Part shown: one piece after another, positions 1,744 to 41,350 of the stretch | Position numbering within the stretch: position 1 is the first letter of the stretch | Layout of the letters: each line of letters begins with the position of its first letter | Source: Escherichia phage vB_EcoM_G2248 | Length of the DNA stretch: 64,000 nt | Reading direction: 5' to 3' (one strand) | Sequence record: MK327932.1 | Translations under genes and position numbers: made by a program | The notes under the pieces: generated by a model | What the model saw: only the letters and a program-made list of their open reading frames with translations | Databases searched by the model: none | What the model was told of the DNA's origin: nothing

Positions 1744-2052
1744 ATGCACACACTCATAAAGACCAAAACTCCAGCCGTTTCCGCACCCGTAAACTGTATT
1801 CATAGTTCTCACATGACCGTGCAAATGTCAGTTGAAGGGGTAAGGGAAGGGCAAAAAGTCATTGCGGAAGCCTTGTTAGAAGGTTCTCTAGATGGTAAAG
1901 GTTGGTTCACTATTTCAGAATTGAAAGCTGATGGTAATGAATATGCAACTGATGGTGGAGCGTTTGAAACATTATGGTCGTTTATTAGGGCAAATGTAAA
2001 ATCAGTATCTAATGATTCTACTGTAACGGTGTATCTTGCTAAACGGGGGTAA
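1744..2052 (+). CDS. Hypothetical late protein (102 aa)
   Basis: ORF with GGGGAG Shine-Dalgarno about 12 nt upstream of the ATG; downstream of a late promoter; no recognisable homology. Confidence 0.4.
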   Translation: MHTLIKTKTPAVSAPVNCIHSSHMTVQMSVEGVREGQKVIAEALLEGSLDGKGWFTISELKADGNEYATDGGAFETLWSFIRANVKSVSNDSTVTVYLAKRG

Positions 2053-2056
2053 TTAT

Positions 2057-3769
2057 ATGAAGCTAAATCCACAAGCTATCATTAGTGCTGGTTCCGTGAG
2101 TGGTGGTTGTTCTGGTGGTATTCAGATCGGGACTAACGTACCTAGCGGAATTAAAAATACCCATCGTTTCGAAAATGAAGAAGCGAGGGATACATATTTT
2201 ACCGAACATTTTCCAGAATTAGATAGACTAAAAACAATTATTGTTTGCGGTGCTAAACTTCAATTATGGACTGGTAATACAGCACAATCCCCGTATGATA
2301 ATTCTAAATGGGTCGATATGACCTGGGTGATTCAGGGCGAACAAGGTATTACTGGAGAGAAAGGCGAAAATGGACGTGGAATTGCTAGAATCGCAGCACA
2401 ATTATCTGACGATGATCGAAACTGGACTCTAGAAATTACATATACAGACTCAACGCAAGAATCTTTAGTATTTCCTGTTCCAGATGTATTAGCAAACTTC
2501 GTACAGCGTTTAAACGCAATCGAAGTAAAATGGACAACAACCAATCCAATCAACAATCTCGGGGTCGCTATATCACCCGGACGCTATCCGGTAGGTGATG
2601 CAACTTATGGAAAACCTCCAATGATGGCGAATAAGGGGTCCGCAGATGTATATGTCGTTGATGGTAGCGTTATTCAGGTGGTCCGTTCTGTTGATGGTGG
2701 CGTTTACACTCGTATCCGACACAATGGAGAATGGAGTGAATGGAACTCTCAAAACGATGGTGGAATTGGTGGCGGTGGTTTAACTGGTGATCAGGAAGCT
2801 ATGCTAACAAGTCTAAGCACTCGTTTACCGGAGACGTCACCAGAAATACTGGATTTAAACACTCTGACTAAACAAGGTCGCTTTTGTTATTTTGAAGGGA
2901 CCGCAAACCGTCCGAATGGAGCACAAGCACACGGTTCAGTAGACGTACATTCGTGTAAAAACTATGTGTTACAGATTGCAACCAGTGTAGAAGGGGTAAT
3001 GTATCATCGCTCATACACAAAGAAAACTGATTCATGGTCCGAATGGACACAGATCAGCGATCATACTGGAGGGGCGACAATATATGAGTTCCCTCGTGTG
3101 TCTAGTGTGTTCACGACCGCACAAAGTTTAATCGAGGCAACAACACCGGGTACTGGAGGCGGGGCATTTTATATTCCGTGGAAATATGTCATTCATGATA
3201 ACTATGGGTGTACACCACGGATATCAGAGCCAGTTAGACAGAACGATGCCGATCATTGGTGGGTGTGTCCGAAATATGGAAGTTATGACATGGAATTGAT
3301 TTTTGATGTTGGTTTTATTAAAACACCACAAACAATTCCTCCTATCTTTACAATCACGGTATGGCATCGATTAACCGACGGTCGAGAACAACAAGCAGCA
3401 CGTTATCAGATTGGATTAGATGTATCACAAAAAAACCAAACATCAAAATCGCTAAAATTGAGAATGACTCACATTACATCGGGAGAGATGTTCCGGTGGC
3501 ATGTTTCATTTAATGGTGGTAGTTGGTCGGCAAGCGATAACCCAGATGTTTCCCTTGTACCATTCCGAACATTGCTGATGGTCGATGAAGTGGAACACGA
3601 TTCAGCAAAACGAATTGGTTCGTTAGCATACAACACATGGGCGAATTTTCAAGCTAGAAAAGGTCTGGCGGCGACTGTAAGTGAAGACGAATTAAAAAAA
3701 GCTCGTCTTAATGCCGTTAAATGGAGCGCATCAATCGAAAGTGTTGATGCATCTCAGGACGACCAATAA
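2057..3769 (+). CDS. Hypothetical late protein (~570 aa) with short collagen-like G-X-Y stretch
   Basis: Long ORF; ATG at 2057 preceded by GGGGG RBS; contains GEQGITGEKGENGRG (five consecutive G-X-Y triplets) and Gly-rich tracts; no T4 counterpart at this position. Confidence 0.55.
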   Translation: MKLNPQAIISAGSVSGGCSGGIQIGTNVPSGIKNTHRFENEEARDTYFTEHFPELDRLKTIIVCGAKLQLWTGNTAQSPYDNSKWVDMTWVIQGEQGITGEKGENGRGIARIAAQLSDDDRNWTLEITYTDSTQESLVFPVPDVLANFVQRLNAIEVKWTTTNPINNLGVAISPGRYPVGDATYGKPPMMANKGSADVYVVDGSVIQVVRSVDGGVYTRIRHNGEWSEWNSQNDGGIGGGGLTGDQEAMLTSLSTRLPETSPEILDLNTLTKQGRFCYFEGTANRPNGAQAHGSVDVHSCKNYVLQIATSVEGVMYHRSYTKKTDSWSEWTQISDHTGGATIYEFPRVSSVFTTAQSLIEATTPGTGGGAFYIPWKYVIHDNYGCTPRISEPVRQNDADHWWVCPKYGSYDMELIFDVGFIKTPQTIPPIFTITVWHRLTDGREQQAARYQIGLDVSQKNQTSKSLKLRMTHITSGEMFRWHVSFNGGSWSASDNPDVSLVPFRTLLMVDEVEHDSAKRIGSLAYNTWANFQARKGLAATVSEDELKKARLNAVKWSASIESVDASQDDQ

Positions 3770-3786
3770 TTAGCGGGGGGTGATTG

Positions 3787-4716
3787 ATGACTGACATTAA
3801 GGCAAAAATTAGCCAGTTGCAAACTGATTTTGTTCAAGGCGAGATCACACATTTCACCGGAAACGAATCAAATGCTCTAATGGAAAGTGATGTTGAAAGA
3901 ATTTCAAATTCAATCAACACTCAATTAATTGATCCTGTAATTGATTTTGTTATTGCTTGTGATGAAGTAATAGCAGAAACAGCAAGCGAGGCACATCAAG
4001 CGGCAGAAGTAGCAAAAAATACTGCTGACGTGGCAGACCGAACGGCAGGTCAATCCATGAGTATGGCAACTGATGCAATTGCTAAAGCTACTACCGCTGA
4101 ATCAGAAGCAACACGAGCACACACCCGATTAGATGAACTGAATATTCCAACAATGCCTAATCTTGATAACCAGACATGGAACTGGCTATCAAGATCTTTT
4201 GATAGTGTCAGTATTAGAGTTGGTAATGGTGTAACATTAGCTGACTCTAATACTAAACCACATATCACATGGACACCAATTCGCCAAAACTTTGAAACAG
4301 GTAGCTATTACGTTGAAGGACGTTTTGAAGCTCGTTTTAAAGTAATGGTTCGAGATTGGATTCAGGGCGAAGGTGGTAATATTGTTTATCTGGCAGGAAT
4401 TGATAGTTTAGCGTCATTTAACGGTTGGATTTATCTGGATGGTTTATCATCTACGGATACGATGAAAACAACCAATATTCAGATTAACGCATACACACAA
4501 AAAGACTCGCAAGTAGTATTTGGCGCTAGTGCTGTTGCGTCTATGTCAGATTCAACAAAAGTTAAAATGGCGTTATTCGTAAACGTAGGAACAGATAGAT
4601 TTGATCAATATACAGATCCGGTCTATGTCGACCTTGTTATGACATTCCAGCGTGACGCTAGCGGTAATTTTGGTTTTGGTACGTTGTTCCCAGAATTAAC
4701 CCCATCTTCTTCATAA
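3787..4716 (+). CDS. Hypothetical late protein (~309 aa), N-terminal helical/coiled-coil-like
   Basis: ATG at 3787 preceded by GCGGGGGG RBS; N-terminal Ala/Glu/Thr-rich heptad-like region; no recognisable homology. Confidence 0.5.
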   Translation: MTDIKAKISQLQTDFVQGEITHFTGNESNALMESDVERISNSINTQLIDPVIDFVIACDEVIAETASEAHQAAEVAKNTADVADRTAGQSMSMATDAIAKATTAESEATRAHTRLDELNIPTMPNLDNQTWNWLSRSFDSVSIRVGNGVTLADSNTKPHITWTPIRQNFETGSYYVEGRFEARFKVMVRDWIQGEGGNIVYLAGIDSLASFNGWIYLDGLSSTDTMKTTNIQINAYTQKDSQVVFGASAVASMSDSTKVKMALFVNVGTDRFDQYTDPVYVDLVMTFQRDASGNFGFGTLFPELTPSSS

Positions 4717-4919: not shown

Positions 4920-4927
4920 TATAAATA
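4920..4927 (+). promoter_or_regulatory. T4-type late promoter (TATAAATA) for gene 24
   Basis: Exact TATAAATA about 38 nt upstream of the gp24 ATG at 4965. Confidence 0.65.
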
Positions 4928-4964: not shown

Positions 4965-6206
4965 ATGACTCATATTTTTACTGAACTGTTGCGGGAATCT
5001 ACTTCCTCAGTAGCTAACCAGACAGCGCGACCGCAACTATTATCACTGACTCGCGCGGTAAACAACCTGATTTTCTCTGATCTGGTGGCAATCCAACCAA
5101 CCGATCAACCAGTATCTGCATTGTACGGCCTACGTTATCTTAATCATGATGGTCAGATGACGTTCCGGACCGCTGCAACCTATGGCGGTGCTGTTGGTGA
5201 TCGTTCTGATATTGAAGAATTTTCACAAGAAAAATCCTATGATGTAGGAGCAAAATTTAAATCAGGCGATGTTGTATACGAAGTTGTAACCGCTGGTACA
5301 GTAGGTGCAGATGCAGCCACGCCCGAAGCCGCAATTTTTAAAGGTGTGATGACAAATCAGATTCGCTTCTATAGCGACTGTGCACCTGTAGAATACTTTG
5401 AAGATAAAAACACAGAGATCTCATCAACGTCAATGCAGTTTGATAAGTGGCAGGTTAATGTAGGTTCTCGTAAATTGAAAACCTCGTTCACCACTGAATT
5501 AATGCAGGATCTTGAAGCAAGCCAAATCAACTCTGAAAACTCTGTAATTGATCTTCTGGCTACTGTCGCTTCCGAAGAGATCAACAAAGATATTATACAG
5601 AAGTTGATCACTGTATCAACTCGCTATAAAATTAAAGGGATCACCCCTGATGGCGTACTTTCTCTAGTTAGCGTTCAGGACGCACCAAAACAAGCTCGCG
5701 AACTTTACCGCTATGCTTGCGAAATGAGCAATCAAATGTTGCGTACTTCCTCCTTTGCTGGCACATACGTTTTGGCGTCTTCTCGCGTGGTTGGTCTCCT
5801 GCAATCTACCGGATGGATGGAAGAAACCGACAATGCTCTAAGCGAAGGCCGTCTACGCTGTGGTCTGGAAGTGTACGCAGATACGGTAACTCCGTTTGAT
5901 TATATGGTCGTTGGCTGTAAACACATGATCGGTGATATGGAGAGTGTAGGTTCTCTTTTCTACTCCCCATACACAGAAGCCGATGGCGCTGGCGCATATA
6001 AGAGCGTAATCGATCCTAACAGCTTCCAACACCATGTAGCTATTATGAATCGTTATTCACTCTCTGTCAACCCATACACAGCAAAAGTTGACCAAGAAGA
6101 ACACCAGGTCATCAAGGGTGACGAGTGGGCTAAACTTGCTGGACGTTCAGAAATGTCCTACATTTTAGGTATCGAACTGCCACCGCTTGAGATTGACAAC
6201 TCTTAA
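4965..6206 (+). CDS. 24: Capsid vertex protein gp24
   Basis: From MTHIFTELLRESTSS... the translation parallels the T4 gp24 N-terminus and is gp23-like in fold; the track's 4797 start is an upstream in-frame extension. Confidence 0.85.
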   Translation: MTHIFTELLRESTSSVANQTARPQLLSLTRAVNNLIFSDLVAIQPTDQPVSALYGLRYLNHDGQMTFRTAATYGGAVGDRSDIEEFSQEKSYDVGAKFKSGDVVYEVVTAGTVGADAATPEAAIFKGVMTNQIRFYSDCAPVEYFEDKNTEISSTSMQFDKWQVNVGSRKLKTSFTTELMQDLEASQINSENSVIDLLATVASEEINKDIIQKLITVSTRYKIKGITPDGVLSLVSVQDAPKQARELYRYACEMSNQMLRTSSFAGTYVLASSRVVGLLQSTGWMEETDNALSEGRLRCGLEVYADTVTPFDYMVVGCKHMIGDMESVGSLFYSPYTEADGAGAYKSVIDPNSFQHHVAIMNRYSLSVNPYTAKVDQEEHQVIKGDEWAKLAGRSEMSYILGIELPPLEIDNS

Positions 6207-6794
6207 CTAAATATCTAACCAAGACAAGTCAGATCCGCCCAAGATTTTTTCGACGGCGGATCTATTTTCTTGATGATATAAGTTAAAACATGGTATCCCA
6301 TGTCTACGGGCAACATAAACAGCAATTCGAGTTCCGCCCGAAACAATACCATTAACTTCTTTCGCCCAAAATAACACACAATCTACAGGATCATCAAGTG
6401 TCTCACCTAAGACTTGAGCAACATTTCTAGAAAACAGATTTTGCATGTATAGCGGTATAGAACGAGGATTATCATAAACGTGTTCTAATTCATCCATCGC
6501 CAGATTCTTTTGCTCTAGAGTCTGCCACGCAATCACATCACGACCATTATGCTTATGATCGTAAAACTTCCAATTTGGAATGAAAATTTTTCTATAATCT
6601 GGGTCGTAATACTTCATGAAAGCATTGTCCATACCGTAAGCCCCTCCAGAATGCGCTACAACGCGATTTTCTGACAATACCCTCCCAATGGCACTAGCCA
6701 TTATCAAAATGTCGTTAGGCGCTTTTCTAGAGCCTATAAGAGCACATCTACGAAGTGGTTTTACTCCAAATAGATCTTGTAACTGGTCAAACAT
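6207..6794 (-). CDS. DprA/Smf-like (SLOG-type Rossmann) protein
   Basis: Motif pattern ALIGSRKAP...A..GR.L......VAHSGGAYGMD resembles the DprA/Smf core (GSR ... SGGA.G.D); ATG at 6794 with GGAGG RBS. Confidence 0.45.
   Translation of the reverse strand: MFDQLQDLFGVKPLRRCALIGSRKAPNDILIMASAIGRVLSENRVVAHSGGAYGMDNAFMKYYDPDYRKIFIPNWKFYDHKHNGRDVIAWQTLEQKNLAMDELEHVYDNPRSIPLYMQNLFSRNVAQVLGETLDDPVDCVLFWAKEVNGIVSGGTRIAVYVARRHGIPCFNLYHQENRSAVEKILGGSDLSWLDI
6231..6270 (+). terminator. Hairpin terminator after gene 24
   Basis: AGATCCGCC...GGCGGATCT inverted repeat followed by a T-rich tract; it overlaps the 3' end of the convergent minus-strand ORF. Confidence 0.5.
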
Positions 6795-7175
6795 AATATT
6801 TTCCTCCATAGAAAGCAGTATCATATTACAAGTTAATAACAAATACAAGTATCCGCGTAGCGGAAGCGAGCACAGCGAGCATTAAAACACTTCCAGTAAC
6901 TGATTAATAAATGTTCGAAACAAATTTTTATTATTCTATAAGATAAGTCTTCGTTTTGTTCATAATTTAATCATACATGTAAAAACTACACAAAAAGGAT
7001 ATCGCTTCGCGAACTCCTACGGAGTATAACATTTGTGTTACAATATGTAGTGATTAATAATTAACCAAAGATACATTTTCTATGTTCTAAAGATCTTTCT
7101 TCGTTTTGGTCACAATTTAATCAAACAGTATTAATATTGTCCACATGTAAACTAAATCATGATGATTTGTGGATA

Positions 7176-7201
7176 CAAAAAAGCCGCCCCGAAGGACGGC
7201 T
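7176..7201 (-). terminator. Rho-independent terminator (minus strand)
   Basis: On the minus strand: TAGCCGTCCTTCGGGGCGGC followed by TTTTTT, immediately downstream of the ORF ending at 7210. Confidence 0.6.
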
Positions 7202-7209
7202 AATGTTAA

Positions 7210-7647
7210 TTATTTGTTGATAACGATCTGATTTCGGCGAATGGTAACATTGCTCTTAGAGATGATCAGATCATCCGGCACTACGTTCGTTTTGTATGGC
7301 TGGAAGCGAACAAGCATCTGATTGCGTTTAGAACCTTCCTTAATCTTGATTTCCATCTGGATATTGTTGCCTACGTGAGCAATAGCAATTTGACCTTTGT
7401 TCTCATAGACCCACTTGCTGGTAACGTCGCCAGCGAAAGCCTTAATAACTTGCAATGCTTCGTCGTATGCAGTAGAGCTATGAACGTTCAGAAGACCAGC
7501 CGTCGCCAGACGTGAGCAAGTGATCGCTGGAGATTGCCAAACATCAACATTGATTTGCTCAATCAGAGCAACACCGCCATGATCAACTGCTTTGAATGCT
7601 TCAAACATTGCTTTTTTCATTGCTACGTGGTTTTTACGGAATTTCAT
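7210..7647 (-). CDS. Hypothetical protein (145 aa)
   Basis: ORF followed by its own terminator; no recognisable homology. Confidence 0.5.
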   Translation of the reverse strand: MKFRKNHVAMKKAMFEAFKAVDHGGVALIEQINVDVWQSPAITCSRLATAGLLNVHSSTAYDEALQVIKAFAGDVTSKWVYENKGQIAIAHVGNNIQMEIKIKEGSKRNQMLVRFQPYKTNVVPDDLIISKSNVTIRRNQIVINK

Positions 7648-8363: not shown

Positions 8364-9593
8364 TTAAAGTGGCGGAGCTTCGCGTATACGAAGAACTCTT
8401 TCTAGTGTCTCTCGATCTAAGTGATGGAATTTGCTTGCATTGTAGCTATAACCATTTCTGGATTCCATACAAATACAATCGCCGTATTTTTCCTCTGCTG
8501 CCGCGATCGTCTCCAGGTCTTTGGCATATCGACTACGGGAATATACTTCTCTGTGTCTCCATTCTAAGTTTAACTCATTGAATTTAACAATCTCGTCAAA
8601 TACCCACCAGCCAATATAGATAAACGACGTTCTACGCCACGGAAGCGGATGGACATAACGGAACATAGTATGAAGAGACTCGACTATGTTCATCTGGCAT
8701 TTGGTACTGATTACAAATCCTACCTCAACACGAGTTCCGTCAATGGTTTGAAAGAGTTTAGCTATACACCAGAAAGTAGCATGATCGTCCTGTGTCGCTC
8801 TTTCTTTGTATAGTGTGCCGTTAGGTAAAATTGAAAATCCCTCTGATATCTCTCCTATGGTGTTTCCTAATAATACCTTATCTTGTCCTTCTCGTTGTAG
8901 ATACCAGTTGTATTGGATGGATAGCGGTGGCATATCGCTATTATCGCCTACAATGTCCTCTGACACAAAATACTGCAATATGATTGGATAACCTATTGCT
9001 ACGGTGTTATCTGCGTTCACATCGCGATCTACGCTCATTTTAGCGAGCATTACCTTAGAAGATGTTTTGTCGATTGAGTTTTCCGATTCACCCCAGACCG
9101 AGACAGTATACACCCCGTTATCGTCATCGCTAAATTCGTGTATTGTTAATGTGTCGCTTGTGTTGTCTAATACTCGACCGTCTTTCTCCCAGCGATAATG
9201 GAGAGTATATGTGTCTGACGGTGATTTTCCTGTGGAGTAACTAACCGTTGTTCGTAGGTCAACATCGGTTTTTGTCTGTACATAGAAATGAGTAGGTTCT
9301 GTTATTTTTACAACTAGTTCGGCCTCATCCATCCGCACCGCGTTACTGGTTGCTTCGTCTCCTGTGTCGGTATCGCGCACGGTTACTTTGTAAGACCCTG
9401 CATTTTCACTTGTTGCGTCAGAAATAGTTAACGTGTTAGTGTCGCCTTCTTGCGATTTATCGTCTTTTGTCCATGTATATGTTAGATTGCTTGGTGCAGG
9501 GTCATCCCCAGAATCCAAAGTCACCGTTAATGTGAACGTGTCACCAGCGAGAAAACATCTTTTATCCGATTTTAATTTAACGGTAAATGCCAT
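8364..9593 (-). CDS. hoc: Hoc-like capsid decoration protein (409 aa)
   Basis: Ig-like beta-rich repeats (e.g. GSYKVTVRDTDTGDE, GVYTVSVWGESENS) plus a C-terminal domain shared with the next ORF (RYVHPLPWRRTSFIYIGWWVFDEI); position matches T4 hoc. Confidence 0.7.
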   Translation of the reverse strand: MAFTVKLKSDKRCFLAGDTFTLTVTLDSGDDPAPSNLTYTWTKDDKSQEGDTNTLTISDATSENAGSYKVTVRDTDTGDEATSNAVRMDEAELVVKITEPTHFYVQTKTDVDLRTTVSYSTGKSPSDTYTLHYRWEKDGRVLDNTSDTLTIHEFSDDDNGVYTVSVWGESENSIDKTSSKVMLAKMSVDRDVNADNTVAIGYPIILQYFVSEDIVGDNSDMPPLSIQYNWYLQREGQDKVLLGNTIGEISEGFSILPNGTLYKERATQDDHATFWCIAKLFQTIDGTRVEVGFVISTKCQMNIVESLHTMFRYVHPLPWRRTSFIYIGWWVFDEIVKFNELNLEWRHREVYSRSRYAKDLETIAAAEEKYGDCICMESRNGYSYNASKFHHLDRETLERVLRIREAPPL

Positions 9594-9644: not shown

Positions 9645-12185
9645 TTAAAATAACTGTGTTCCGTCAACCAGATAACCGTTACGAGATTCAAGTACATGCG
9701 TATTGCTGTAATGATGCAGCGATGCCGCGATAGTCTCGATCTCATCTGGATATTTGGTATGCTCAAAATCTTCCAGCCAGTTTAATCCAGATTTAAGGCA
9801 TCGTTCGATCTCATCCATGACCCAATACCCTTGATATTGGAACGAGGTACGACGCCACGGGATGGGATGCACATAACGTTTAAGTGTCGCTTTAGTAAAC
9901 ACAATGCGAACTTTTTCTGTGTGTGCAACATGGCCTTCGTCGTCCTTGACGACCGCGTAATATGTTGCTTCATGGTTCTCTTTAGTCAACTCACCATGAG
10001 GGATAGTCAAAACTTTTTGAGTTGCCCCAGGAATTGTTTTGTCTATGCCTCCTTTGACTTTATGCCACTGCCAACTAACTACTTTATCATCATCGACGTG
10101 TTCAGCGTGCGCTTCCAGCTTAACGTCTTGCTCTTGACCTTCTTTTGCCACAACATCAACCGGATGTTTGATAATGTTGATGTTTTGATGTGGAGCCATA
10201 GTGATTTCTGCCGGATTAGTTTCTACAGTTGTTTCTGCGGCTGTAATAACGGCAGTATAACGACCTACGTCAGAAGGTTTAACATGCTCGATGATAAGAG
10301 TTTCCGAGTTTTCCCCTGGAATAATAACACCATCTTTTTTCCACTGATAAGTTGGTTTTATGCCAATCGTATTAGTGGCTTGAGCGTGTAAAATAACTCT
10401 CTGGTTGAGGTTGACGTGAGCATCTTGCGGATGTATTGTAATTCGAGTATCGTTTTCAACAATCGACGGATCGTCGGTAATGATAACCCTTGCCGGATTG
10501 GTCATTTGCGATACACGATGTTCACCAAAACCCGCTGATACACGGCAGGTGTATACACCAGATGACGTTATCTGAGCGTGATCTTCACCATAAGAATTTC
10601 GTTGTTCGACACCAGCCGGGAAAAGATCTTTACCGTCTTTAAACCAGCGATAACGAACAGGTAGCGCATCATTCGAGGTTGCCTCAACTGAGATGGTCCA
10701 TACTCCACCAGAACGAACACTAATAGCGTGTGGCTGTTTAGTGATGTTCATAGTGGATTTGGTGGCGTCTACAGAAACCTGAACTTCATTGGAATCTTTA
10801 ACGATGCGATGATTCGAGATACCCATAGAAACCACGCATTTATAACGACCCTCGTCGGCTTTAGTGATAGCAGAAAAATGTAATGAATCCGAAGTTTTAT
10901 TTGGGATCAACTCATTATCCTTATACCACTGATAATCTAATTTGAAATGTTCATAATTAGACGTTGCTCGACAAGTAAGAGTTTGAGATGAACTCACACG
11001 AACGTTATTGATCGGCTGTGGTTGTTGGGTGATCGTGATCACCGGAGATGACCCGACCAGAAGTGTTGCTACCTCTGATTCGGTGATCTGATTATTTCCA
11101 TATGTAATTCGAGCTTTGAATTTAGCCTCATTAACATCATTGGTCGCCGGAATGATTTTTAACTCTTTTTCCGTTTCTCCAACGATAGGAGTAAATTCAC
11201 CTTCTTCTTTTTTCTGGCGTAGCCACTGTATTTTAACATTGGTGTAATTTGTTACATAATCAACACTTAGTACCGCTGGCGTTAATGCCGGAACATTAGT
11301 GTTTAATGGCTGTCGGGAAATTCGGAAATATGAACGTCCAGACACAACAACATTACAATCTTTAGAATAAACTACAGTACCCCCTTGACGAACTTCGAGA
11401 CGCCAGATCCCAGCATCGGCTTGTGTTACATACGGGATGATCATTGCTGTACCGTCTTGATCGATGATCTTTTTCCCGTTATGAATCCATGTGTACTCAA
11501 TATCACGAGTTGCATCATCGGACCTTACCGTAACTTCTAAATCCAAACGAGCATCTTCTAATACGGTGACAGTATCAGAATAATGTTCTTCGATGTGAAT
11601 TACTGGCGGTTTATCGTTTTCTTCCACAACAACCGGACTAATACGGTAATATGCTCGTGCGTCCTGGATAACAAATACTTTACAAGTATAATTGCCGAAG
11701 TCTTCACGAGATACCCTATCAACGTGTACGTTTTTAGCTTGTACTTTGTTGGGGTCAATCATAACATGATCTTTATACCAGATTGTATCAAATTGATAAC
11801 CGTCTTCGACAATCGGAGTGGCAAAAACATCAAGTGCTTCGCCAATTCGTTTGTAGATGTAAGTCGGAGATTGGTCTTGTGGTGCGATAAATGGAATACG
11901 CTCAACCAAAATCGGATCAATATCCACATAATCCAGTGGATTCTCTTTCAATTTGACACGCGCGGTATATGTGCCAAATTGTTCTTGAGTCAATTCGGCA
12001 ATGTACAGAGATTGGTCTGGTTCTGCAACTTGATCCGCTGGCACACTCTGACCGTTTAGCTTCCATTCTACGATATAGTCTTTAAAATCTGATGTACTTA
12101 CTACCAATTTAAGAACAAGTTCATGTCCCACTGATGCGTGGACAGGACCAGTAGTTTGATGTAAAATATTGATTTTATCAGACAT
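9645..12185 (-). CDS. Giant Hoc-like protein (846 aa) with multiple Ig-like domains
   Basis: Repeated ~90-aa Ig-like modules (conserved W...Y.C/Y.V patterns, e.g. GRYKCVV, GVYTCRV, GNYTCKV) and a C-terminal domain paralogous to the neighbouring Hoc-like gene (RYVHPIPWRRTSFQYQGYWVMDEI). Confidence 0.7.
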   Translation of the reverse strand: MSDKINILHQTTGPVHASVGHELVLKLVVSTSDFKDYIVEWKLNGQSVPADQVAEPDQSLYIAELTQEQFGTYTARVKLKENPLDYVDIDPILVERIPFIAPQDQSPTYIYKRIGEALDVFATPIVEDGYQFDTIWYKDHVMIDPNKVQAKNVHVDRVSREDFGNYTCKVFVIQDARAYYRISPVVVEENDKPPVIHIEEHYSDTVTVLEDARLDLEVTVRSDDATRDIEYTWIHNGKKIIDQDGTAMIIPYVTQADAGIWRLEVRQGGTVVYSKDCNVVVSGRSYFRISRQPLNTNVPALTPAVLSVDYVTNYTNVKIQWLRQKKEEGEFTPIVGETEKELKIIPATNDVNEAKFKARITYGNNQITESEVATLLVGSSPVITITQQPQPINNVRVSSSQTLTCRATSNYEHFKLDYQWYKDNELIPNKTSDSLHFSAITKADEGRYKCVVSMGISNHRIVKDSNEVQVSVDATKSTMNITKQPHAISVRSGGVWTISVEATSNDALPVRYRWFKDGKDLFPAGVEQRNSYGEDHAQITSSGVYTCRVSAGFGEHRVSQMTNPARVIITDDPSIVENDTRITIHPQDAHVNLNQRVILHAQATNTIGIKPTYQWKKDGVIIPGENSETLIIEHVKPSDVGRYTAVITAAETTVETNPAEITMAPHQNINIIKHPVDVVAKEGQEQDVKLEAHAEHVDDDKVVSWQWHKVKGGIDKTIPGATQKVLTIPHGELTKENHEATYYAVVKDDEGHVAHTEKVRIVFTKATLKRYVHPIPWRRTSFQYQGYWVMDEIERCLKSGLNWLEDFEHTKYPDEIETIAASLHHYSNTHVLESRNGYLVDGTQLF

Positions 12186-15109: not shown

Positions 15110-15517
15110 TTAGCGACCAGATTCCAGCATACGCAATTCTATAGCATTCTTGATCGCAAAGCCACGAGATTTAACGATATCAAGTGCGCGACCAGCAAAA
15201 TCCATTACCATCTGGTAATATGCAATTTTTGTATCAAGCGGTAAGATCTCGTCGTCTGCTGCCATGACAACTTTCAATTCTGATTTCTCATATTCAGCAC
15301 GACACCAGTCATCACTACGGTTAGTGTAAAAGTCAAGACGATTTTTCATAGCCTTTTTCTTTTTAGCCTCAAGAGCAATCGTCTCTCTTTTCGCCTCGCT
15401 GTAAATCCTTAACCACTTTGAGTATACTACCGGATTATTCAGCGCCTCCCATTGCAACTTAGTCGCATCGATCTTCATGTCAGCTTCTAATTGTTCTTTC
15501 AAATCGTTTAGGTCCAT
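15110..15517 (-). CDS. uvsY: UvsY recombination mediator
   Basis: 135 aa; aligns with T4 UvsY (KLQWEA.NN..YSKWL, KSRGFAIK conserved). Confidence 0.9.
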   Translation of the reverse strand: MDLNDLKEQLEADMKIDATKLQWEALNNPVVYSKWLRIYSEAKRETIALEAKKKKAMKNRLDFYTNRSDDWCRAEYEKSELKVVMAADDEILPLDTKIAYYQMVMDFAGRALDIVKSRGFAIKNAIELRMLESGR

Positions 15518-34417: not shown

Positions 34418-34891
34418 TTACTCCTTATTTTCGCGCTCGTACTTTTCGAAATAAAATTCTACTGGCTGGTCATGAATTGACAGCAAGCCAAAGCGTTTAG
34501 CCGCTCGCAATCCCATATTGCGCTGAATGTACTTCTGGAAGTTCTCGCGTATACACTTACGCCAGTATTCTAAGCCCATACAGCTTTTATAAAGATTGCA
34601 TTGCACACACGCCGGATTCATGTTATCAAGTATATCATGTTCCGGTTTATGCATTCCTACAACCTTATACTTCCACGATCCATCATCATTACGGGCAATT
34701 CGTCCATTTTCATCATAGACTACCTTTGAGCGTCGCAATACTGGTTTGATGTGGTCTGCGTGCCAGCGATCCCCTAGTTCCTCGCCACAATAGGCACAAC
34801 GTCCACCATATTTCATTTTCAGGATCTGGCGTTGCTCTTTCTTTGACAATTTTTTAGGTTTAGGGGCTTTCGCCCCTTCATTATCACACAT
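34418..34891 (-). CDS. HNH endonuclease
   Basis: CAYCGEELGDRWHADHIKPV ... NMNPACVQCN: HNH motif with two CxxC pairs; overlaps the 3' end of the ligase gene. Confidence 0.65.
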   Translation of the reverse strand: MCDNEGAKAPKPKKLSKKEQRQILKMKYGGRCAYCGEELGDRWHADHIKPVLRRSKVVYDENGRIARNDDGSWKYKVVGMHKPEHDILDNMNPACVQCNLYKSCMGLEYWRKCIRENFQKYIQRNMGLRAAKRFGLLSIHDQPVEFYFEKYERENKE

Positions 34892-36386
34892 CGAATACCT
34901 CTTTTACTGTATTTGCAGTGGTCTTGTCGTAGCGAATACGTTTGATGATCGGGAGAAATAAAGAGAACTCAGGTTCATCTTCTTTACGTGATTTGCTGCG
35001 AATGTACCCGTTGCATGTCATCTCAATGACTTTTCCAATCAGGTTATGACGGTCAGCCCATAACATTTCTCGGTCGAGTTCATTTCGACGATCGAACGGA
35101 ATTACACGTTCAATACCATCATCACCTTTTTCGGTTGTGGTGTCGGTTAATCCCGATCCGGTGTTAGTCATCATTCGTCCGCACGCACTACGGACAGTAA
35201 AACCGCCTACCTTATTAGGATCTTTACTATGCGGATATACATCAACAATTTCAGCGTCGAAGTCAATCACTTCTTTAAATTTAACCTGGTCTTTACTGCG
35301 ACGATCTTCAAATACACCATGTAAATTTTTAAGGATAATACCTTCTAAGCCCATGTTTACATAGCGATGATATACTTCGCGAGCTTCATCTATATTGTTA
35401 ACTACAGTGTTTTCGATTATCTGAACACGAGGATCGTTAAGTTCTTCAACAATCTGTTTTAGTTCTTCGAATCGATCTTTATATTGCTTCGTTGCTTTCT
35501 CGTTTCCGTAATACACATCACGGTCGATAACATCCCAGACAGTATAAACAATACATTGGGCTTCTTCTTTTGGAATAGTTCCTTTAAGTGATTTGTTGAG
35601 GATACCATTTCCGGTCTGACGATCTGCAACAACGGATTCTTTTACTGCTTCCGCTACTGGCGTTAATGGCATTTCCTCTTCTTCAAATATCCATGACAGA
35701 GTACCATCATAAACGCTCTCAACGAAGTTCTGCGCTGGTGTTTGCGAAAGGGTAGGCATATATACCAATTCGCCATCTAGAACAATTCCACGGCCTCGTA
35801 GACGCTCTAAAACCGCAAACAAATCATCAAGTCCTTGATAGGTATTACCTGAGCGGGTATAGATTGCTAATGTTTCCCCGTCAATATCAGCCATACCACG
35901 AGCGCCATCGCTTTTAAGTTGTGCATACGCCGGATACTTGATATTAGCAATAGTCTTATCAGAACATGACGATGCAAGGTGACACGGTTGCTGGGGGATC
36001 AGTTTCTTCCATACCTTGTTTGCAGTGGTAGCGGAACAACCACATTCCAGATCACGATTCAGGACCATCATTGCAACTTTAGCATCATCTTCTGACAAGC
36101 AAGTCAGAGTATCGGTAACTAGCTGTAATGCTGCGTTACCAGTTACTTGACGCGTGGCAAGTTTATTTTTAAAGACCTGTAATGCACCGGATAAAGACAA
36201 TACAGACGAATAACGCGATGGTTTATCGTATTTCTTTACGCCAAACGTAACCTGTTTGCAATATGCCAGATAAAAGCATTCTTTCAGTGTTTCATTGCTT
36301 GCAGATTCTTTCAGGATCTTTTCTTTCAGCGATGTTTTGTCTGTTGCTGCAAGCTGGTTAATGATATTAAGAATTGACATTTTCAC
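34884..36386 (-). CDS. 30: ATP-dependent DNA ligase gp30
   Basis: 500 aa; adenylation motif AQLKSDGARG (KxDG); position and size match T4 gene 30. Confidence 0.85.
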   Translation of the reverse strand: MKMSILNIINQLAATDKTSLKEKILKESASNETLKECFYLAYCKQVTFGVKKYDKPSRYSSVLSLSGALQVFKNKLATRQVTGNAALQLVTDTLTCLSEDDAKVAMMVLNRDLECGCSATTANKVWKKLIPQQPCHLASSCSDKTIANIKYPAYAQLKSDGARGMADIDGETLAIYTRSGNTYQGLDDLFAVLERLRGRGIVLDGELVYMPTLSQTPAQNFVESVYDGTLSWIFEEEEMPLTPVAEAVKESVVADRQTGNGILNKSLKGTIPKEEAQCIVYTVWDVIDRDVYYGNEKATKQYKDRFEELKQIVEELNDPRVQIIENTVVNNIDEAREVYHRYVNMGLEGIILKNLHGVFEDRRSKDQVKFKEVIDFDAEIVDVYPHSKDPNKVGGFTVRSACGRMMTNTGSGLTDTTTEKGDDGIERVIPFDRRNELDREMLWADRHNLIGKVIEMTCNGYIRSKSRKEDEPEFSLFLPIIKRIRYDKTTANTVKEVFDV

Positions 36387-36846
36387 CTCGTTTTGTTAAA
36401 CGTTCACGAATATCATTGAGGATACTACAAAATTCCGATTCAGTCAATATAGTCTTTAACGGATCAGTTCCACCTATGCTATGACGTAATTTCTTATTTC
36501 CTGTAGCGAGTAATGCTTTACAAAATTCTGGGTTATCCCGTGCCATCGTAACAAATGCCAGATGTACCAGTCTGTAATAATGCTCACTCATTCGATGAAT
36601 AGGGCGACCCTGAAAATATAACATGTGATTCTCAATCTTTTCAGTTCTTCCGGTTCTTTTTGCTTTGCCACCGTGCATCAAAAAGATTTCTCTTTGTCTC
36701 TGAGGGTTCTTAAATCTTAGCCCCTGTAAAAATCCTTCTGTGCTGTTAATATCGCAACCAAATAGACGGAATGGTCTTTTATTGAAATTGCTCAATTCAC
36801 CCGATGGATAAGGTCCACCCGCATAGATATCAATTTCAGAAGTCAT
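36367..36846 (-). CDS. NADAR (YbiA-like) domain protein
   Basis: GELSNF...F......EGFLQGLRF and ALLATGNKKLRHS resemble the YbiA/NADAR pattern (LSNF ... E..FQ..KF ... ALL.T....L.E). Confidence 0.55.
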   Translation of the reverse strand: MTSEIDIYAGGPYPSGELSNFNKRPFRLFGCDINSTEGFLQGLRFKNPQRQREIFLMHGGKAKRTGRTEKIENHMLYFQGRPIHRMSEHYYRLVHLAFVTMARDNPEFCKALLATGNKKLRHSIGGTDPLKTILTESEFCSILNDIRERLTKRGENVNS

Positions 36847-40180: not shown

Positions 40181-41350
40181 TTACCAATCAATCTTATCAG
40201 CCGGAATAAGTTTCTTATAATTCCGTAGATAGTAAGTTTTCATTGAATCCAGAATACGGTCATAATCAAGACCATCAAATGCAATCATCAGACACATGAA
40301 AATATATGCTTGTGCATCACCATGTTTACGTGATTCGATAGTCGCATTTGATGCATATGTCTTTCTGTCTTCTCCCGCGTGTGCGTTATAAAATTCTGTT
40401 GCTGTCGTGAAGGCATTGCGAAGAATAGACCTGAATGCTTCCTCGAATAGCTCGATTCGTTCCAGTGCTTCCGGTTCGCCTTCATATGCAGCACGCAAAT
40501 CATCGGTTTCGCTTTCTACGACATAGTAGATCAGGTTATTAGGAAACATCGATGTGTTTTTAATGTTATGCACACCAATATACCATTCACTCTTCACTTT
40601 GAACATTTGACCGTCTTTAGTGCGTGCAACAATTCCTTCGATACCTTCTGCGGTCCGAACTTCGTCAAGAATATTGCCAAAACGCGCTGAATCAACCTGT
40701 AACGCATTTACCAGATGAGGACGTAGGATTGCGTCAGCAAATAGCATTTGATGCGGTACGTACTCTCCTGTGACGTTATGGCGTACATTCAGAAGTGTTA
40801 GCGACGGTTCAGAATATTCTACAACAATTCGGTTGCTGGGTGCTGTATATTCAAAGTTGAAAGTATAATCAGACCCAATATCAGCAATCTTAGCGCGTAG
40901 ATCCGCATACTTCTCTGAATACAGAAGACCGTTTGCTCTCTCTGCCTGGCTTGAGTACAAGGCCGCTTTAGACTTCAACTGAACATAGCCGTTATCAATG
41001 TATGTGCTTACTAGACTACCGTCCATTTTGTCCATGACCATTTCCACATCTTCCGGCTTAAAGCGAGCGCGATCATTCTCACCCAAATTAAAAAACTTCT
41101 CCATAGGACGAGATGCGATGCGGACCGGACGACCTTTATCGTCAATTTCAAACATGATCCCGCGACACTCTAACGCATCTGGTTTATTCCACATTTCCGG
41201 TTTGCTCAAGTACAGATAACTAAAAATGCGCATACGGGTTTGCATCGCCGTAATTTCATCTTTGTAATAGAACGTATCAGATCCGTCACATAGTGCCATC
41301 AGATTTTTGAACAATGCTAAAACTTTTTTGTTGTTTTCTTTTGTTGACAT
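40181..41350 (-). CDS. rnlA: RNA ligase 1
   Basis: N-terminus aligns with T4 RnlA (RIFSY.Y ... PDALECRGIMFE ... PVRIASRPMEKFFNL.EN). Confidence 0.85.
   Translation of the reverse strand: MSTKENNKKVLALFKNLMALCDGSDTFYYKDEITAMQTRMRIFSYLYLSKPEMWNKPDALECRGIMFEIDDKGRPVRIASRPMEKFFNLGENDRARFKPEDVEMVMDKMDGSLVSTYIDNGYVQLKSKAALYSSQAERANGLLYSEKYADLRAKIADIGSDYTFNFEYTAPSNRIVVEYSEPSLTLLNVRHNVTGEYVPHQMLFADAILRPHLVNALQVDSARFGNILDEVRTAEGIEGIVARTKDGQMFKVKSEWYIGVHNIKNTSMFPNNLIYYVVESETDDLRAAYEGEPEALERIELFEEAFRSILRNAFTTATEFYNAHAGEDRKTYASNATIESRKHGDAQAYIFMCLMIAFDGLDYDRILDSMKTYYLRNYKKLIPADKIDW

What the first reader, a model, noticed from the sequence alone, without database searches (positions are those of the whole stretch)
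6207..6794. DprA/Smf-like SLOG-type protein where T4 carries rnlB
The gene convergent with gene 24 encodes a ~196-aa protein with a DprA/Smf-like Rossmann signature (GSRKAP ... VAHSGGAYGMD). T4 has RNA ligase 2 (rnlB) after gene 24; no ligase motifs are present here. SLOG-type domains bind ssDNA or nucleotide-derived ligands, so the protein could act in recombination or nucleotide-signal handling.
Basis: partly seen in the sequence, partly recalled or inferred. Interest (0 to 1): 0.5.

Follow-up and report, generated by a model that had tools for sequence, protein, structure and literature searches.

The report
Phage DprA-like Rossmann (SLOG) protein
The gene next to capsid-vertex gene 24 of this RB49-like coliphage does encode a small DprA-like nucleotide/ssDNA-binding protein, but the family is common in phages and already annotated, and its function is untested.

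Summary
Window 6207-6794 (minus strand) is a real 195-aa gene with a GGAGG ribosome-binding site. Its stop codon abuts the gene 24 stop, and it is under purifying selection.

The window is a Krischvirus (RB49/Phi1-like). The Phi1 orthologue (ORF164) is already named "DprA-like DNA recombination-mediator protein" in RefSeq, and the protein matches PHROG 768 at E=8e-60.

It is not a canonical DprA. It scores below the Pfam and TIGRFAM cut-offs and has the Rossmann domain only. It does not replace rnlB: Jiaodavirus carries rnlB and this gene side by side in the same slot.

The function is untested. The best reading is an accessory protein that binds ssDNA or a nucleotide. Relatives are fused to NADAR, DUF4326 or RecJ domains, and this phage carries a separate gp30.3/AdfN NADAR. 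That points to a possible role in ADP-ribose/ssDNA counter-defence.

Verdict: an ordinary, already-annotated family with an open mechanism.

The parts
6207..6794 (-). Coding sequence of the 195-aa DprA-like SLOG protein (orthologue of Phi1 ORF164 / PHROG 768), stop codon included
   Evidence: ORF and translation. PHROG 768 E=8e-60. Phi1 annotation. AlphaFold model pLDDT 87.
6803..6807 (-). Shine-Dalgarno GGAGG, 8 nt upstream of the ATG
   Evidence: Read directly from the sequence.
6717..6734 (-). [quoted passage not shown] R23 corresponds to the DprA ssDNA-contact arginine (HpDprA R52, ShosA R139).
   Evidence: G21 99%, S22 89%, R23 97% and P26 91% conserved in 135 homologues. HMM alignment to HpDprA. 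ShosA/HpDprA residue roles from PMC12961424.
6627..6650 (-). Motif 2, SGGAYGMD (residues 49-56), the glycine-rich loop typical of DprA (SGxAxGxD)
   Evidence: S49 96%, G50 100%, A52 97%, G54 99% and D56 99% conserved. Aligned to HpDprA SGGALGVD and to E. coli Smf SGLARGID.
6405..6428 (-). Motif 3, RNVAQVLG (residues 123-130). The R123-N124 pair matches the DprA F-x-x-R-N motif (HpDprA R143, ShosA R234).
   Evidence: R123 99%, N124 96%, Q127 97% and G130 91% conserved. Collinear with E. coli Smf FPRRNRIISGLS, judged by eye.
6309..6338 (-). Motif 4, GGTRIAVYVA (residues 153-162). It lacks the LOG catalytic glutamate.
   Evidence: G153, G154 and T155 99%, A158 94% and A162 93% conserved. Position 157 is T/I/Q/V and position 158 is Ala.
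7182..7201 (-). Terminator-like hairpin that ends the upstream transcription unit. Together with the ~390-bp spacer it suggests the gene has its own promoter.
   Evidence: Consensus scan found 8 pairs (6 G-C) followed by a T-run. No TATAAATA late motif on the minus strand upstream. Function not shown.
36367..36846 (-). gp30.3/AdfN-type NADAR gene. It is a possible functional partner, inferred only from gene fusions seen in other phages.
   Evidence: PF08010 Phage_30_3 E=1.9e-38. NADAR::SLOG fusions P0046, P0134, P0152, P0017 and P0018. AdfN activity from PMC11257639.

Best explanation
The gene encodes a stand-alone, single-domain member of the DprA branch of the SLOG Rossmann superfamily. The family is large and mostly phage-borne (PHROG 768).

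Shown here: the fold; the four collinear DprA-type pocket motifs (G-S-R, S-G-G-A-x-G-x-D, R-N, G-G-T); their near-invariance across the family; and purifying selection.

Inferred: the pocket binds a phosphate-sugar-base unit. The most likely ligand is a nucleotide within single-stranded DNA, as in H. pylori DprA and ShosA, where the arginines equivalent to R23 and R123 contact ssDNA.

The proposed role is an accessory, non-structural protein with its own transcription unit. It would bind phage ssDNA intermediates and protect them or hand them to partner enzymes. The partners it is physically fused to in other phages are a NADAR ADP-ribosyl-glycohydrolase, DUF4326 and the RecJ exonuclease.

It is probably not a canonical RecA/UvsX loader. 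It lacks the SAM and winged-helix domains of DprA, and T4-like phages already carry UvsY; a 135-aa ORF lies where Phi1 has uvsY (15110-15517), but it was not checked here.
For: Identity:
- PHROG 768 E=8e-60. PF02481 is the only Pfam hit. 93 of 135 homologues hit PF02481 weakly, against 18 for LDcluster4.
- The family profile hits HpDprA at E=6.5e-6 and LOG only at E=0.1.

Pocket:
- G21, R23, S49, G50, A52, G54, D56, R123, N124, Q127, G153, G154 and T155 are >=96% conserved in a family with ~30% pairwise identity.
- R23 aligns with the GTR arginine of HpDprA. R123 lies in the RN motif that is collinear with Smf's FPRRN.
- The equivalent arginines, HpDprA R52/R143 and ShosA R139/R234, are needed for ssDNA binding (PMC12961424).

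Context pointing to nucleic acid:
- Fusions to RecJ (DHH-DHHA1-OB) and to NADAR.
- NADAR enzymes such as T4 AdfN remove ADP-ribose from DNA (PMC11257639).
- Neighbours include SSB, Pif1/UvrD helicases, and DNA and RNA ligases.

The gene is real and selected: 18 synonymous against 4 non-synonymous codon differences versus Phi1. A family member lies within ~40 bp of convergent gene 24 in Krischvirus, Jiaodavirus, Ceceduovirus and a metagenomic relative.
Against: - No binding data exist for any member of this phage family.
- Only the N-terminal half aligns to DprA by sequence. hhalign against E. coli Smf covers 66 columns at 21% probability. Scores are below the Pfam cut-off (22.1 vs 29.6 bits) and the TIGR00732 cut-off (14.2 vs 191).
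- The third DprA ssDNA arginine (HpDprA R170) aligns with a variable position.
- The same four motif positions form the nucleotide pocket of every SLOG protein, so a free nucleotide or an ADP-ribose derivative is an equally natural ligand.
- Fusions and neighbours such as NADAR, DUF4326, Macro and Nampt were read by Iyer et al. 2022 (PMC9503650) as evidence for processing of soluble ADP-ribose derivatives.
- The protein is slightly acidic (pI 6.6), although the family median is 8.5.
Confidence: 0.5

Rival explanations
1. The protein senses or degrades soluble NAD+-derived immune signals or toxins (ADP-ribose, cyclic ADP-ribose isomers, AMP-containing molecules). The SLOG pocket would bind the free nucleotide, as in ThsA or LOG. 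The protein would sequester it or cleave an N-glycosidic bond, blunting Thoeris-like or other NAD+-centred defences. This is the published prediction for viral SLOG domains.
For: - Family members are fused to NADAR (5 of the 10 proteins of at least 300 aa among the top 150 hits) and to DUF4326 (2 of 10).
- One locus reads Macro - DUF4326 - NADAR::SLOG.
- Nampt and Prs genes lie within 2-3 kb in Pakpunavirus and Slopekvirus.
- Iyer et al. 2022 predicted this role and reported co-occurrence of SLOG, Macro, NADAR and Nudix domains in DNA viruses (PMC9503650).
- A different phage Smf-like protein, PhiDruSM1 ORF83, is needed to grow on AVAST type III hosts and is predicted to bind AMP.
Against: - The LOG catalytic glutamate (PGGxGTxxE) is absent. 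The equivalent positions are variable or Ala.
- Sequence and Foldseek similarity is specific to the DprA/ShosA branch, not to LOG, ThsA or YpsA.
- NADAR and DarG-type Macro enzymes are now known to act on ADP-ribosylated ssDNA (PMC11257639), so those fusions fit an ssDNA-binding module equally well.
- The RecJ fusion has no obvious link to soluble signals.
- Viral YspA/DUF2493-type SLOGs, and the Marseillevirus protein that resembles the amoeba-virus (Tunisvirus) ORF83 homologue named by EVADES, match the model only at TM ~0.45.
Confidence: 0.3
2. The protein works in nucleic-acid nick or RNA repair together with a ligase. It would bind a broken strand end or nick and present it to RNA ligase 2, RNA ligase 1/PNKP or DNA ligase.
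For: - The gene overlaps the rnlB stop codon in Jiaodavirus.
- An RNA ligase lies ~500 bp upstream in Slopekvirus.
- RnlA and PNKP lie 3-5 kb upstream in a metagenomic phage.
- An ATP-dependent DNA ligase lies 1.4 kb upstream in Nankokuvirus.
- In PhiDruSM1, deleting either the DNA ligase (ORF55) or the Smf-like ORF83 sensitised the phage to AVAST type III.
Against: - In this phage no ligase is adjacent. RnlA and gp30 ligase lie 28-34 kb away and no RnlB is in the window.
- The adjacency is confined to related T4-like genera, so it may reflect shared ancestry of the locus rather than function.
- No conserved neighbour exists across phage groups.
Confidence: 0.1
3. The protein mimics a DprA-like antitoxin (ShosA or PsyrA/RqlI). 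It would substitute for the host antitoxin and keep the ShosT or PsyrT toxin silent during infection.
For: - PADLOC gives weak hits to PsyrA (E=3.8e-5) and ShosA (E=2.3e-4).
- ShosA is a DprA-like ssDNA- and RecA-binding antitoxin (PMC12961424).
- Orphan antitoxin-like counter-defence genes have precedent in T4-like phages (AdfN).
Against: - The PADLOC matches cover only residues 15-61, the generic GSR...SGGA region, and are no better than the match to ordinary DprA.
- The protein lacks the SAM domain and the C-terminal helix that ShosA needs for stability and dimerisation.
- ShosA does not bind ShosT directly, so simple mimicry has no clear route.
Confidence: 0.05

Closest known systems
PHROG 768 / RefSeq 'DprA-like DNA recombination-mediator protein' (e.g. 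Escherichia phage Phi1 ORF164, YP_001469510.1)
   Same: This is the same gene. It sits at the same locus, convergent with gene 24, and orthologues are 95-99% identical in 58 Krischvirus records (PHB13 99.0%, kaaroe 97.4%; the Phi1 gene is 96% identical in nucleotides). The PHROG match is full length at E=8e-60.
   Different: Nothing substantive differs. The name is a homology-based label and no member has been characterised experimentally.
Bacterial DprA/Smf (Pfam PF02481, TIGR00732; structures 4LJK, 4LJR, 3UQZ, 3MAJ)
   Different: Scores fall below the curated family cut-offs. There is no SAM domain and no C-terminal winged-helix domain. A ~40-residue insertion (about residues 74-115) lies between strand 3 and the RN helix. 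The third DNA-contact arginine is not conserved. The C-terminal half is not alignable by sequence. Dimerisation, RecA or UvsX binding and any role in transformation were not tested.
ShosA / PsyrA DprA-like antitoxins of anti-phage toxin-antitoxin systems
   Different: No adjacent PRTase or RecQ-like toxin gene. No SAM domain and no helix alpha-14. The similarity is limited to the generic motif region.
Viral SLOG domains of the NAD+/ADP-ribose network (Iyer, Burroughs, Anantharaman, Aravind 2022), and PhiDruSM1 ORF83 (anti-AVAST type III)
   Same: Phage-encoded, small, stand-alone SLOG proteins whose relatives are fused to NADAR, Macro or DUF4326 domains. ORF83 carries the same COG label, 'Smf/DprA'.
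   Different: The ORF83 model is closest to LOG rather than DprA, and its RN-to-T spacing is 23 residues against 32 here. YspA/DUF2493-type viral SLOGs and the Marseillevirus protein match this model only at TM ~0.45, against 0.75-0.79 for true family members.
LOG (Lonely Guy) phosphoribohydrolases
   Different: No catalytic glutamate follows the GGT motif. RN replaces RK. The profile match is insignificant (E=0.1).

Membership tests
SLOG (SMF/DprA-LOG) Rossmann superfamily | Three-layer alpha/beta Rossmannoid fold whose closest structural neighbours are SLOG proteins | tested here: met
SLOG (SMF/DprA-LOG) Rossmann superfamily | Conserved glycine-rich and polar loops after strand 1 and after the next strand, plus a motif in the later helix, forming the nucleotide pocket | tested here: met
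   GSR, SGGAxGxD, RN and GGT are 89-100% conserved in 135 homologues.
PHROG 768 (phage DprA-like proteins) | Significant full-length match to the family profile | tested here: met
   E=8.2e-60, 202.6 bits, residues 15-187 against profile positions 4-181 of 191.
DprA/Smf sensu stricto (PF02481 / TIGR00732) | Score at or above the curated family threshold | tested here: not met
   PF02481 gives 22.1 bits against a cut-off of 29.6, over residues 15-60 only. TIGR00732 gives 14.2 bits against 191.15.
DprA/Smf sensu stricto (PF02481 / TIGR00732) | Domain architecture: a Rossmann domain flanked by an N-terminal SAM domain and/or a C-terminal winged-helix (DML1) domain | tested here: not met
   The 195-aa protein is a single Rossmann domain, with secondary structure H2-9 through H175-185. 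E. coli Smf is 374 aa.
DprA/Smf sensu stricto (PF02481 / TIGR00732) | ssDNA-contact arginines (HpDprA R52, R143, R170) | tested here: inconclusive
   R23 (aligned to R52) and R123 (in the collinear RN motif, R143) are 97-99% conserved. The R170-equivalent column is variable. ShosA R261, the R170 equivalent, was dispensable too.
DprA/Smf sensu stricto (PF02481 / TIGR00732) | ssDNA binding, dimerisation and loading of RecA-family recombinase | not testable with these tools
   This needs EMSA, AUC and pull-downs, or multimer structure prediction.
LOG phosphoribohydrolase | PGGxGTxxE motif with a catalytic glutamate, plus the R-K motif | tested here: not met
   The sequence reads GGT-R-I-A. Position 157 is T/I/Q/V and position 158 is Ala in 94% of the family. 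RN replaces RK. The profile E-value to LOG is 0.1.
YpsA / YspA-cpYpsA (DUF1273, DUF2493/YAcAr) SLOG families | Match to the family profiles or a close structural match | tested here: not met
ShosTA / PsyrTA antitoxin | DprA-like gene paired with an adjacent PRTase or RecQ-like toxin gene, and a significant full-length profile match | tested here: not met
   PADLOC hits have E 2e-4 to 4e-5 and cover residues 15-61 only. The neighbours are gene 24 and a 145-aa protein of unknown function.
RNA ligase 2 (T4 RnlB) | Nucleotidyltransferase KxDG motif and homology to Rnl2 | tested here: not met
   No K.DG in the protein. tblastn with Jiaodavirus and Slopekvirus RNA ligases finds nothing in the window at E<0.01.

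The most novel reading that the evidence does not exclude
The protein is not a recombination mediator. It would be the ssDNA-recognition (or ADP-ribosyl-DNA-recognition) partner of the phage NADAR enzyme gp30.3/AdfN, encoded at 36367-36846. Together they would form a split version of the NADAR::DprA-like fusion proteins seen in other phages. Their job would be to find and reverse DarT-type ADP-ribosylation of phage ssDNA, or of related base-linked ADP-ribose marks. That would make PHROG 768 a widespread and so far unrecognised counter-defence family.
Probability: 0.2. Interest if true: 0.6.

Novelty: already known. Interest (0 to 1): 0.3.

Why it matters
As an annotation it adds nothing. The same gene already carries the same name in RefSeq and in Pharokka-annotated genomes, and phage DprA/Smf and SLOG genes have been discussed in comparative-genomics papers (PMC7824862, PMC9503650).

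What remains open is the function of a very large family. It has 4343 clusters at 50% identity, 1334 phage genomes encode it, and no member has been characterised. Two incompatible published predictions exist: an extra ssDNA-binding or recombination protein, and a processor of ADP-ribose signals.

The recurrent fusions to NADAR, DUF4326 and RecJ, together with the discovery that NADAR enzymes de-ADP-ribosylate DNA, make a concrete hypothesis cheap to test in an E. coli phage. If the protein proved to be part of an anti-DarT or other counter-defence mechanism, the label "recombination mediator" on more than a thousand genomes would be wrong.

Tried and rejected
1. **RNA ligase replacement.** Rejected. 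There is no KxDG motif and no Rnl2 similarity, and relatives carry both genes adjacent to each other.

2. **LOG-type phosphoribohydrolase.** Rejected for lack of the catalytic glutamate and an insignificant profile match.

3. **Conserved two-gene module.** The small genes that overlap the 3' end of the homologue in Pakpunavirus, Nankokuvirus, phAPEC8, Slopekvirus and Acinetobacter phage, and their upstream neighbours, share no similarity with each other or with window ORF 7210-7647.

4. **ShosA/PsyrA antitoxin mimic.** Only the generic motif region matches.

5. **Link to the experimentally flagged anti-AVAST III protein ORF83 of PhiDruSM1.**
   - The sequence could not be obtained.
   - The family profile finds nothing in the first 50 kb of the Queuovirinae phages 9g and Seurat.
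   - Published ORF83 features point to a different SLOG branch.
   - The link is left untested.

6. **The search for related loci with the 135-sequence alignment** failed because no stretch was conserved enough. The 7-sequence alignment returned only 6 loci.

7. **hhalign of the family against single-sequence E. coli Smf** aligned only the N-terminal 66 columns.

8. **Promoter class.** The consensus scan gave only a weak sigma-70-like site (9 of 12) upstream and no late motif, so the timing of expression is undetermined.

Full report
**What is there**

On the minus strand, an ATG at 6794 opens a 195-codon reading frame that ends at 6207. GGAGG lies 8 nt upstream of the ATG, at 6807-6803.

The gene is convergent with the capsid-vertex gene 24. 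Gene 24 occupies 4965-6206 on the plus strand and is preceded by the T4-type late motif TATAAATA at 4920-4927. The two stop codons are directly adjacent.

Upstream of the gene there is a ~390-bp non-coding stretch. It begins after a strong terminator-like hairpin at 7201-7182 that closes the preceding unit. No late-promoter motif lies on that strand, so the gene probably has its own non-late promoter. The scan gives only a weak candidate, and the timing of expression is not established.

**Which genome, and is the gene real**

The region is 88-93% identical in nucleotides to 58 Krischvirus genomes (RB49/Phi1/GEC-3S group of T4-like coliphages). All of them encode the protein at 95-99% amino-acid identity. 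Against Phi1, 18 of the 22 differing codons are synonymous. The Phi1 orthologue (ORF164, YP_001469510.1) is already annotated in RefSeq as "DprA-like DNA recombination-mediator protein", as are many Pharokka-annotated genomes.

**Family**

- The protein matches PHROG 768 over its full length (E=8e-60).
- Its only Pfam hit is DNA_processg_A (PF02481). That hit is below the gathering threshold (22.1 vs 29.6 bits) and covers residues 15-60 only.
- The DprA equivalog TIGR00732 is far below its cut-off.
- A profile search of 1.84 billion representative proteins finds 4343 clusters (2758 at E<=1e-10), almost all stand-alone proteins of 160-220 aa.
- tblastn finds the family in 1334 phage genomes of many unrelated groups: T4-like, Pakpunavirus, Nankokuvirus, phAPEC8-like, N4-like, jumbo phages and others.

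**Fold and pocket**

An AlphaFold2 model (mean pLDDT 87, pTM 0.85) has a Rossmann-type alpha/beta fold.

- All twelve Foldseek hits with E<=1e-3 are DprA or ShosA.
- A profile of 135 diverse homologues hits H. pylori DprA at E=6.5e-6 and a LOG enzyme only at E=0.1.

In that alignment, where pairwise identity to the query is about 30%, four blocks are nearly invariant:
- G21-S22-R23-x-x-P26
- S49-G50-G51-A52-x-G54-x-D56
- R123-N124-x-x-Q127-x-x-G130
- G153-G154-T155-x-x-A158

The same four blocks occur in the same order in E. coli Smf: VVGSR, SGLARGID, FPRRNRIISGLS, SGSLVTA. In H. pylori DprA and in the antitoxin ShosA, the arginines equivalent to R23 and R123 are required for ssDNA binding (PMC12961424). 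The third DprA arginine falls on a variable column here.

The LOG catalytic glutamate is absent.

**Not a canonical DprA, and not a stand-in for rnlB**

The protein consists of the Rossmann domain alone. It has a ~40-residue insertion (about residues 74-115), which is the least confident part of the model, and it lacks the SAM and winged-helix domains.

It contains no K.DG ligase motif, and nothing in the 64-kb window resembles RNA ligase 2. The window does encode RNA ligase 1 (40181-41350) and DNA ligase gp30 (34884-36386).

The slot after gene 24 holds both genes in other T4-like genera:
- In Jiaodavirus the order is rnlB, then the DprA-like gene with overlapping stop and start, then convergent gene 24.
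- Slopekvirus has the RNA ligase, an HNH gene and the DprA-like gene in a row.
- Ceceduovirus has the DprA-like gene one ORF away from gene 24.
- A 49%-identical metagenomic relative has the Krischvirus arrangement.

The DprA-like gene is thus an old resident of this locus in part of the Straboviridae. Krischvirus lacks rnlB there. From established knowledge, T4 has the order 24, rnlB (24.1), 24.2, 24.3, hoc; whether T4 encodes a family member was not checked here.

**Clues to function**

No adjacent gene is conserved across phage groups. The gene sits among early-type accessory and nucleic-acid-metabolism genes: ligases, Pif1/UvrD helicases, SSB, dCMP deaminase, Nampt/Prs and phosphatases.

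Domain fusions are more informative. Among the ten proteins of at least 300 aa in the top 150 family hits:
- Five carry a NADAR domain. Two of these are ~1480-aa polyvalent proteins that also carry YAcAr and LDcluster4 SLOG domains.
- Two carry DUF4326.
- One is a RecJ exonuclease with the DprA-like domain at its C-terminus.
- Two have no recognisable extra domain.

One fusion lies in a gene string Macro - DUF4326 - NADAR::SLOG.

Iyer et al. read such associations as evidence that viral SLOG domains sense or degrade soluble ADP-ribose derivatives (PMC9503650). The same group had earlier suggested that phage DprA/Smf proteins are extra ssDNA-binding proteins (PMC7824862). Since then NADAR enzymes, including T4 gp30.3 (AdfN), have been shown to remove ADP-ribose from DNA modified by DarT1 (PMC11257639).

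An ssDNA-binding DprA-type module fused to NADAR or RecJ is therefore coherent, and it reconciles the two views. This phage carries a stand-alone gp30.3/AdfN homologue at 36367-36846 (PF08010, E=1.9e-38). A split version of the fusion is possible, but this is inference only.

**A possibly related experimental lead**

Deleting ORF83 of phage PhiDruSM1, annotated "Smf/DprA", lowered plating on AVAST type III hosts (preprint 10.1101/2024.04.14.589459). A later preprint models ORF83 as an AMP-binding LOG-like protein with amoeba-virus homologues fused to DUF4326 (10.1101/2025.06.06.658234).

I could not obtain the ORF83 sequence. The family profile finds nothing in two other Queuovirinae genomes. 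The Marseillevirus and YspA-type viral SLOG proteins match the present model only at TM ~0.45, against 0.75-0.79 for true family members. ORF83 is therefore probably a different SLOG branch, but this is untested.

**Conclusion**

The observation and the family assignment are correct, and both were already in the public record.

The most likely mechanism (confidence about 0.5) is binding of ssDNA, or of a nucleotide within it, through the conserved DprA-type pocket. The protein would act as an accessory factor that protects phage ssDNA or hands it to partner enzymes.

The rivals are:
- a sensor or hydrolase of soluble ADP-ribose-type molecules (about 0.3);
- a ligase-linked repair role (about 0.1);
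- antitoxin mimicry (about 0.05).

None can be decided without biochemistry or phage genetics. The decisive experiments are simple and are listed under next steps.

Noticed in passing
window 2036-3769 (+) and 3784-4716 (+): Two extra genes lie between major capsid gene 23 (16-1581) and gene 24. One encodes a 577-aa protein with a short collagen-like G-x-x repeat and weak tail-fibre PHROG hits. The other encodes a 310-aa protein whose last 42 residues match phrog_20809. Phi1/GEC-3S-type Krischviruses lack both genes; only SSG23, SFHK24, Brandy and UPWr_E1 share them.
   Followed up: partly
window 8364-9593 (-) and 9645-12185 (-): Two tandem Hoc-like head-decoration genes (409 aa and 846 aa, the latter with many Ig-like repeats) share a similar C-terminal module (YVHP[LI]PWRRTSF...). 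Phi1 has a single hoc. A metagenomic relative (L017) also has an 853-aa Ig protein next to a 448-aa one.
   Followed up: partly
window 36367-36846 (-), 34884-36386 (-), 40181-41350 (-): The window encodes a gp30.3/AdfN-type NADAR (PF08010, E=1.9e-38) next to DNA ligase gp30, and an RNA ligase 1 (RnlA) homologue. No RNA ligase 2 homologue is present in the 64 kb.
   Followed up: partly
L018 2348-4440 (metagenomic phage contig SRR12487045_701148): A gene string reads Macro - DUF4326 - NADAR::DprA-like SLOG. It is a compact putative ADP-ribose-processing cassette that contains a member of the same SLOG family.
   Followed up: no
P0017 and P0018 (1475 and 1488 aa, representative-library hits): These polyvalent proteins combine the DprA-like SLOG domain with YAcAr and LDcluster4 SLOG domains and a C-terminal NADAR domain. 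That places three different SLOG types in one polypeptide.
   Followed up: no
window 7210-7647 (-): The 145-aa protein upstream of the DprA-like gene matches phrog_15652 (unknown function) over its full length (E=2.6e-99). It is followed by a strong terminator-like hairpin at 7201-7182.
   Followed up: no
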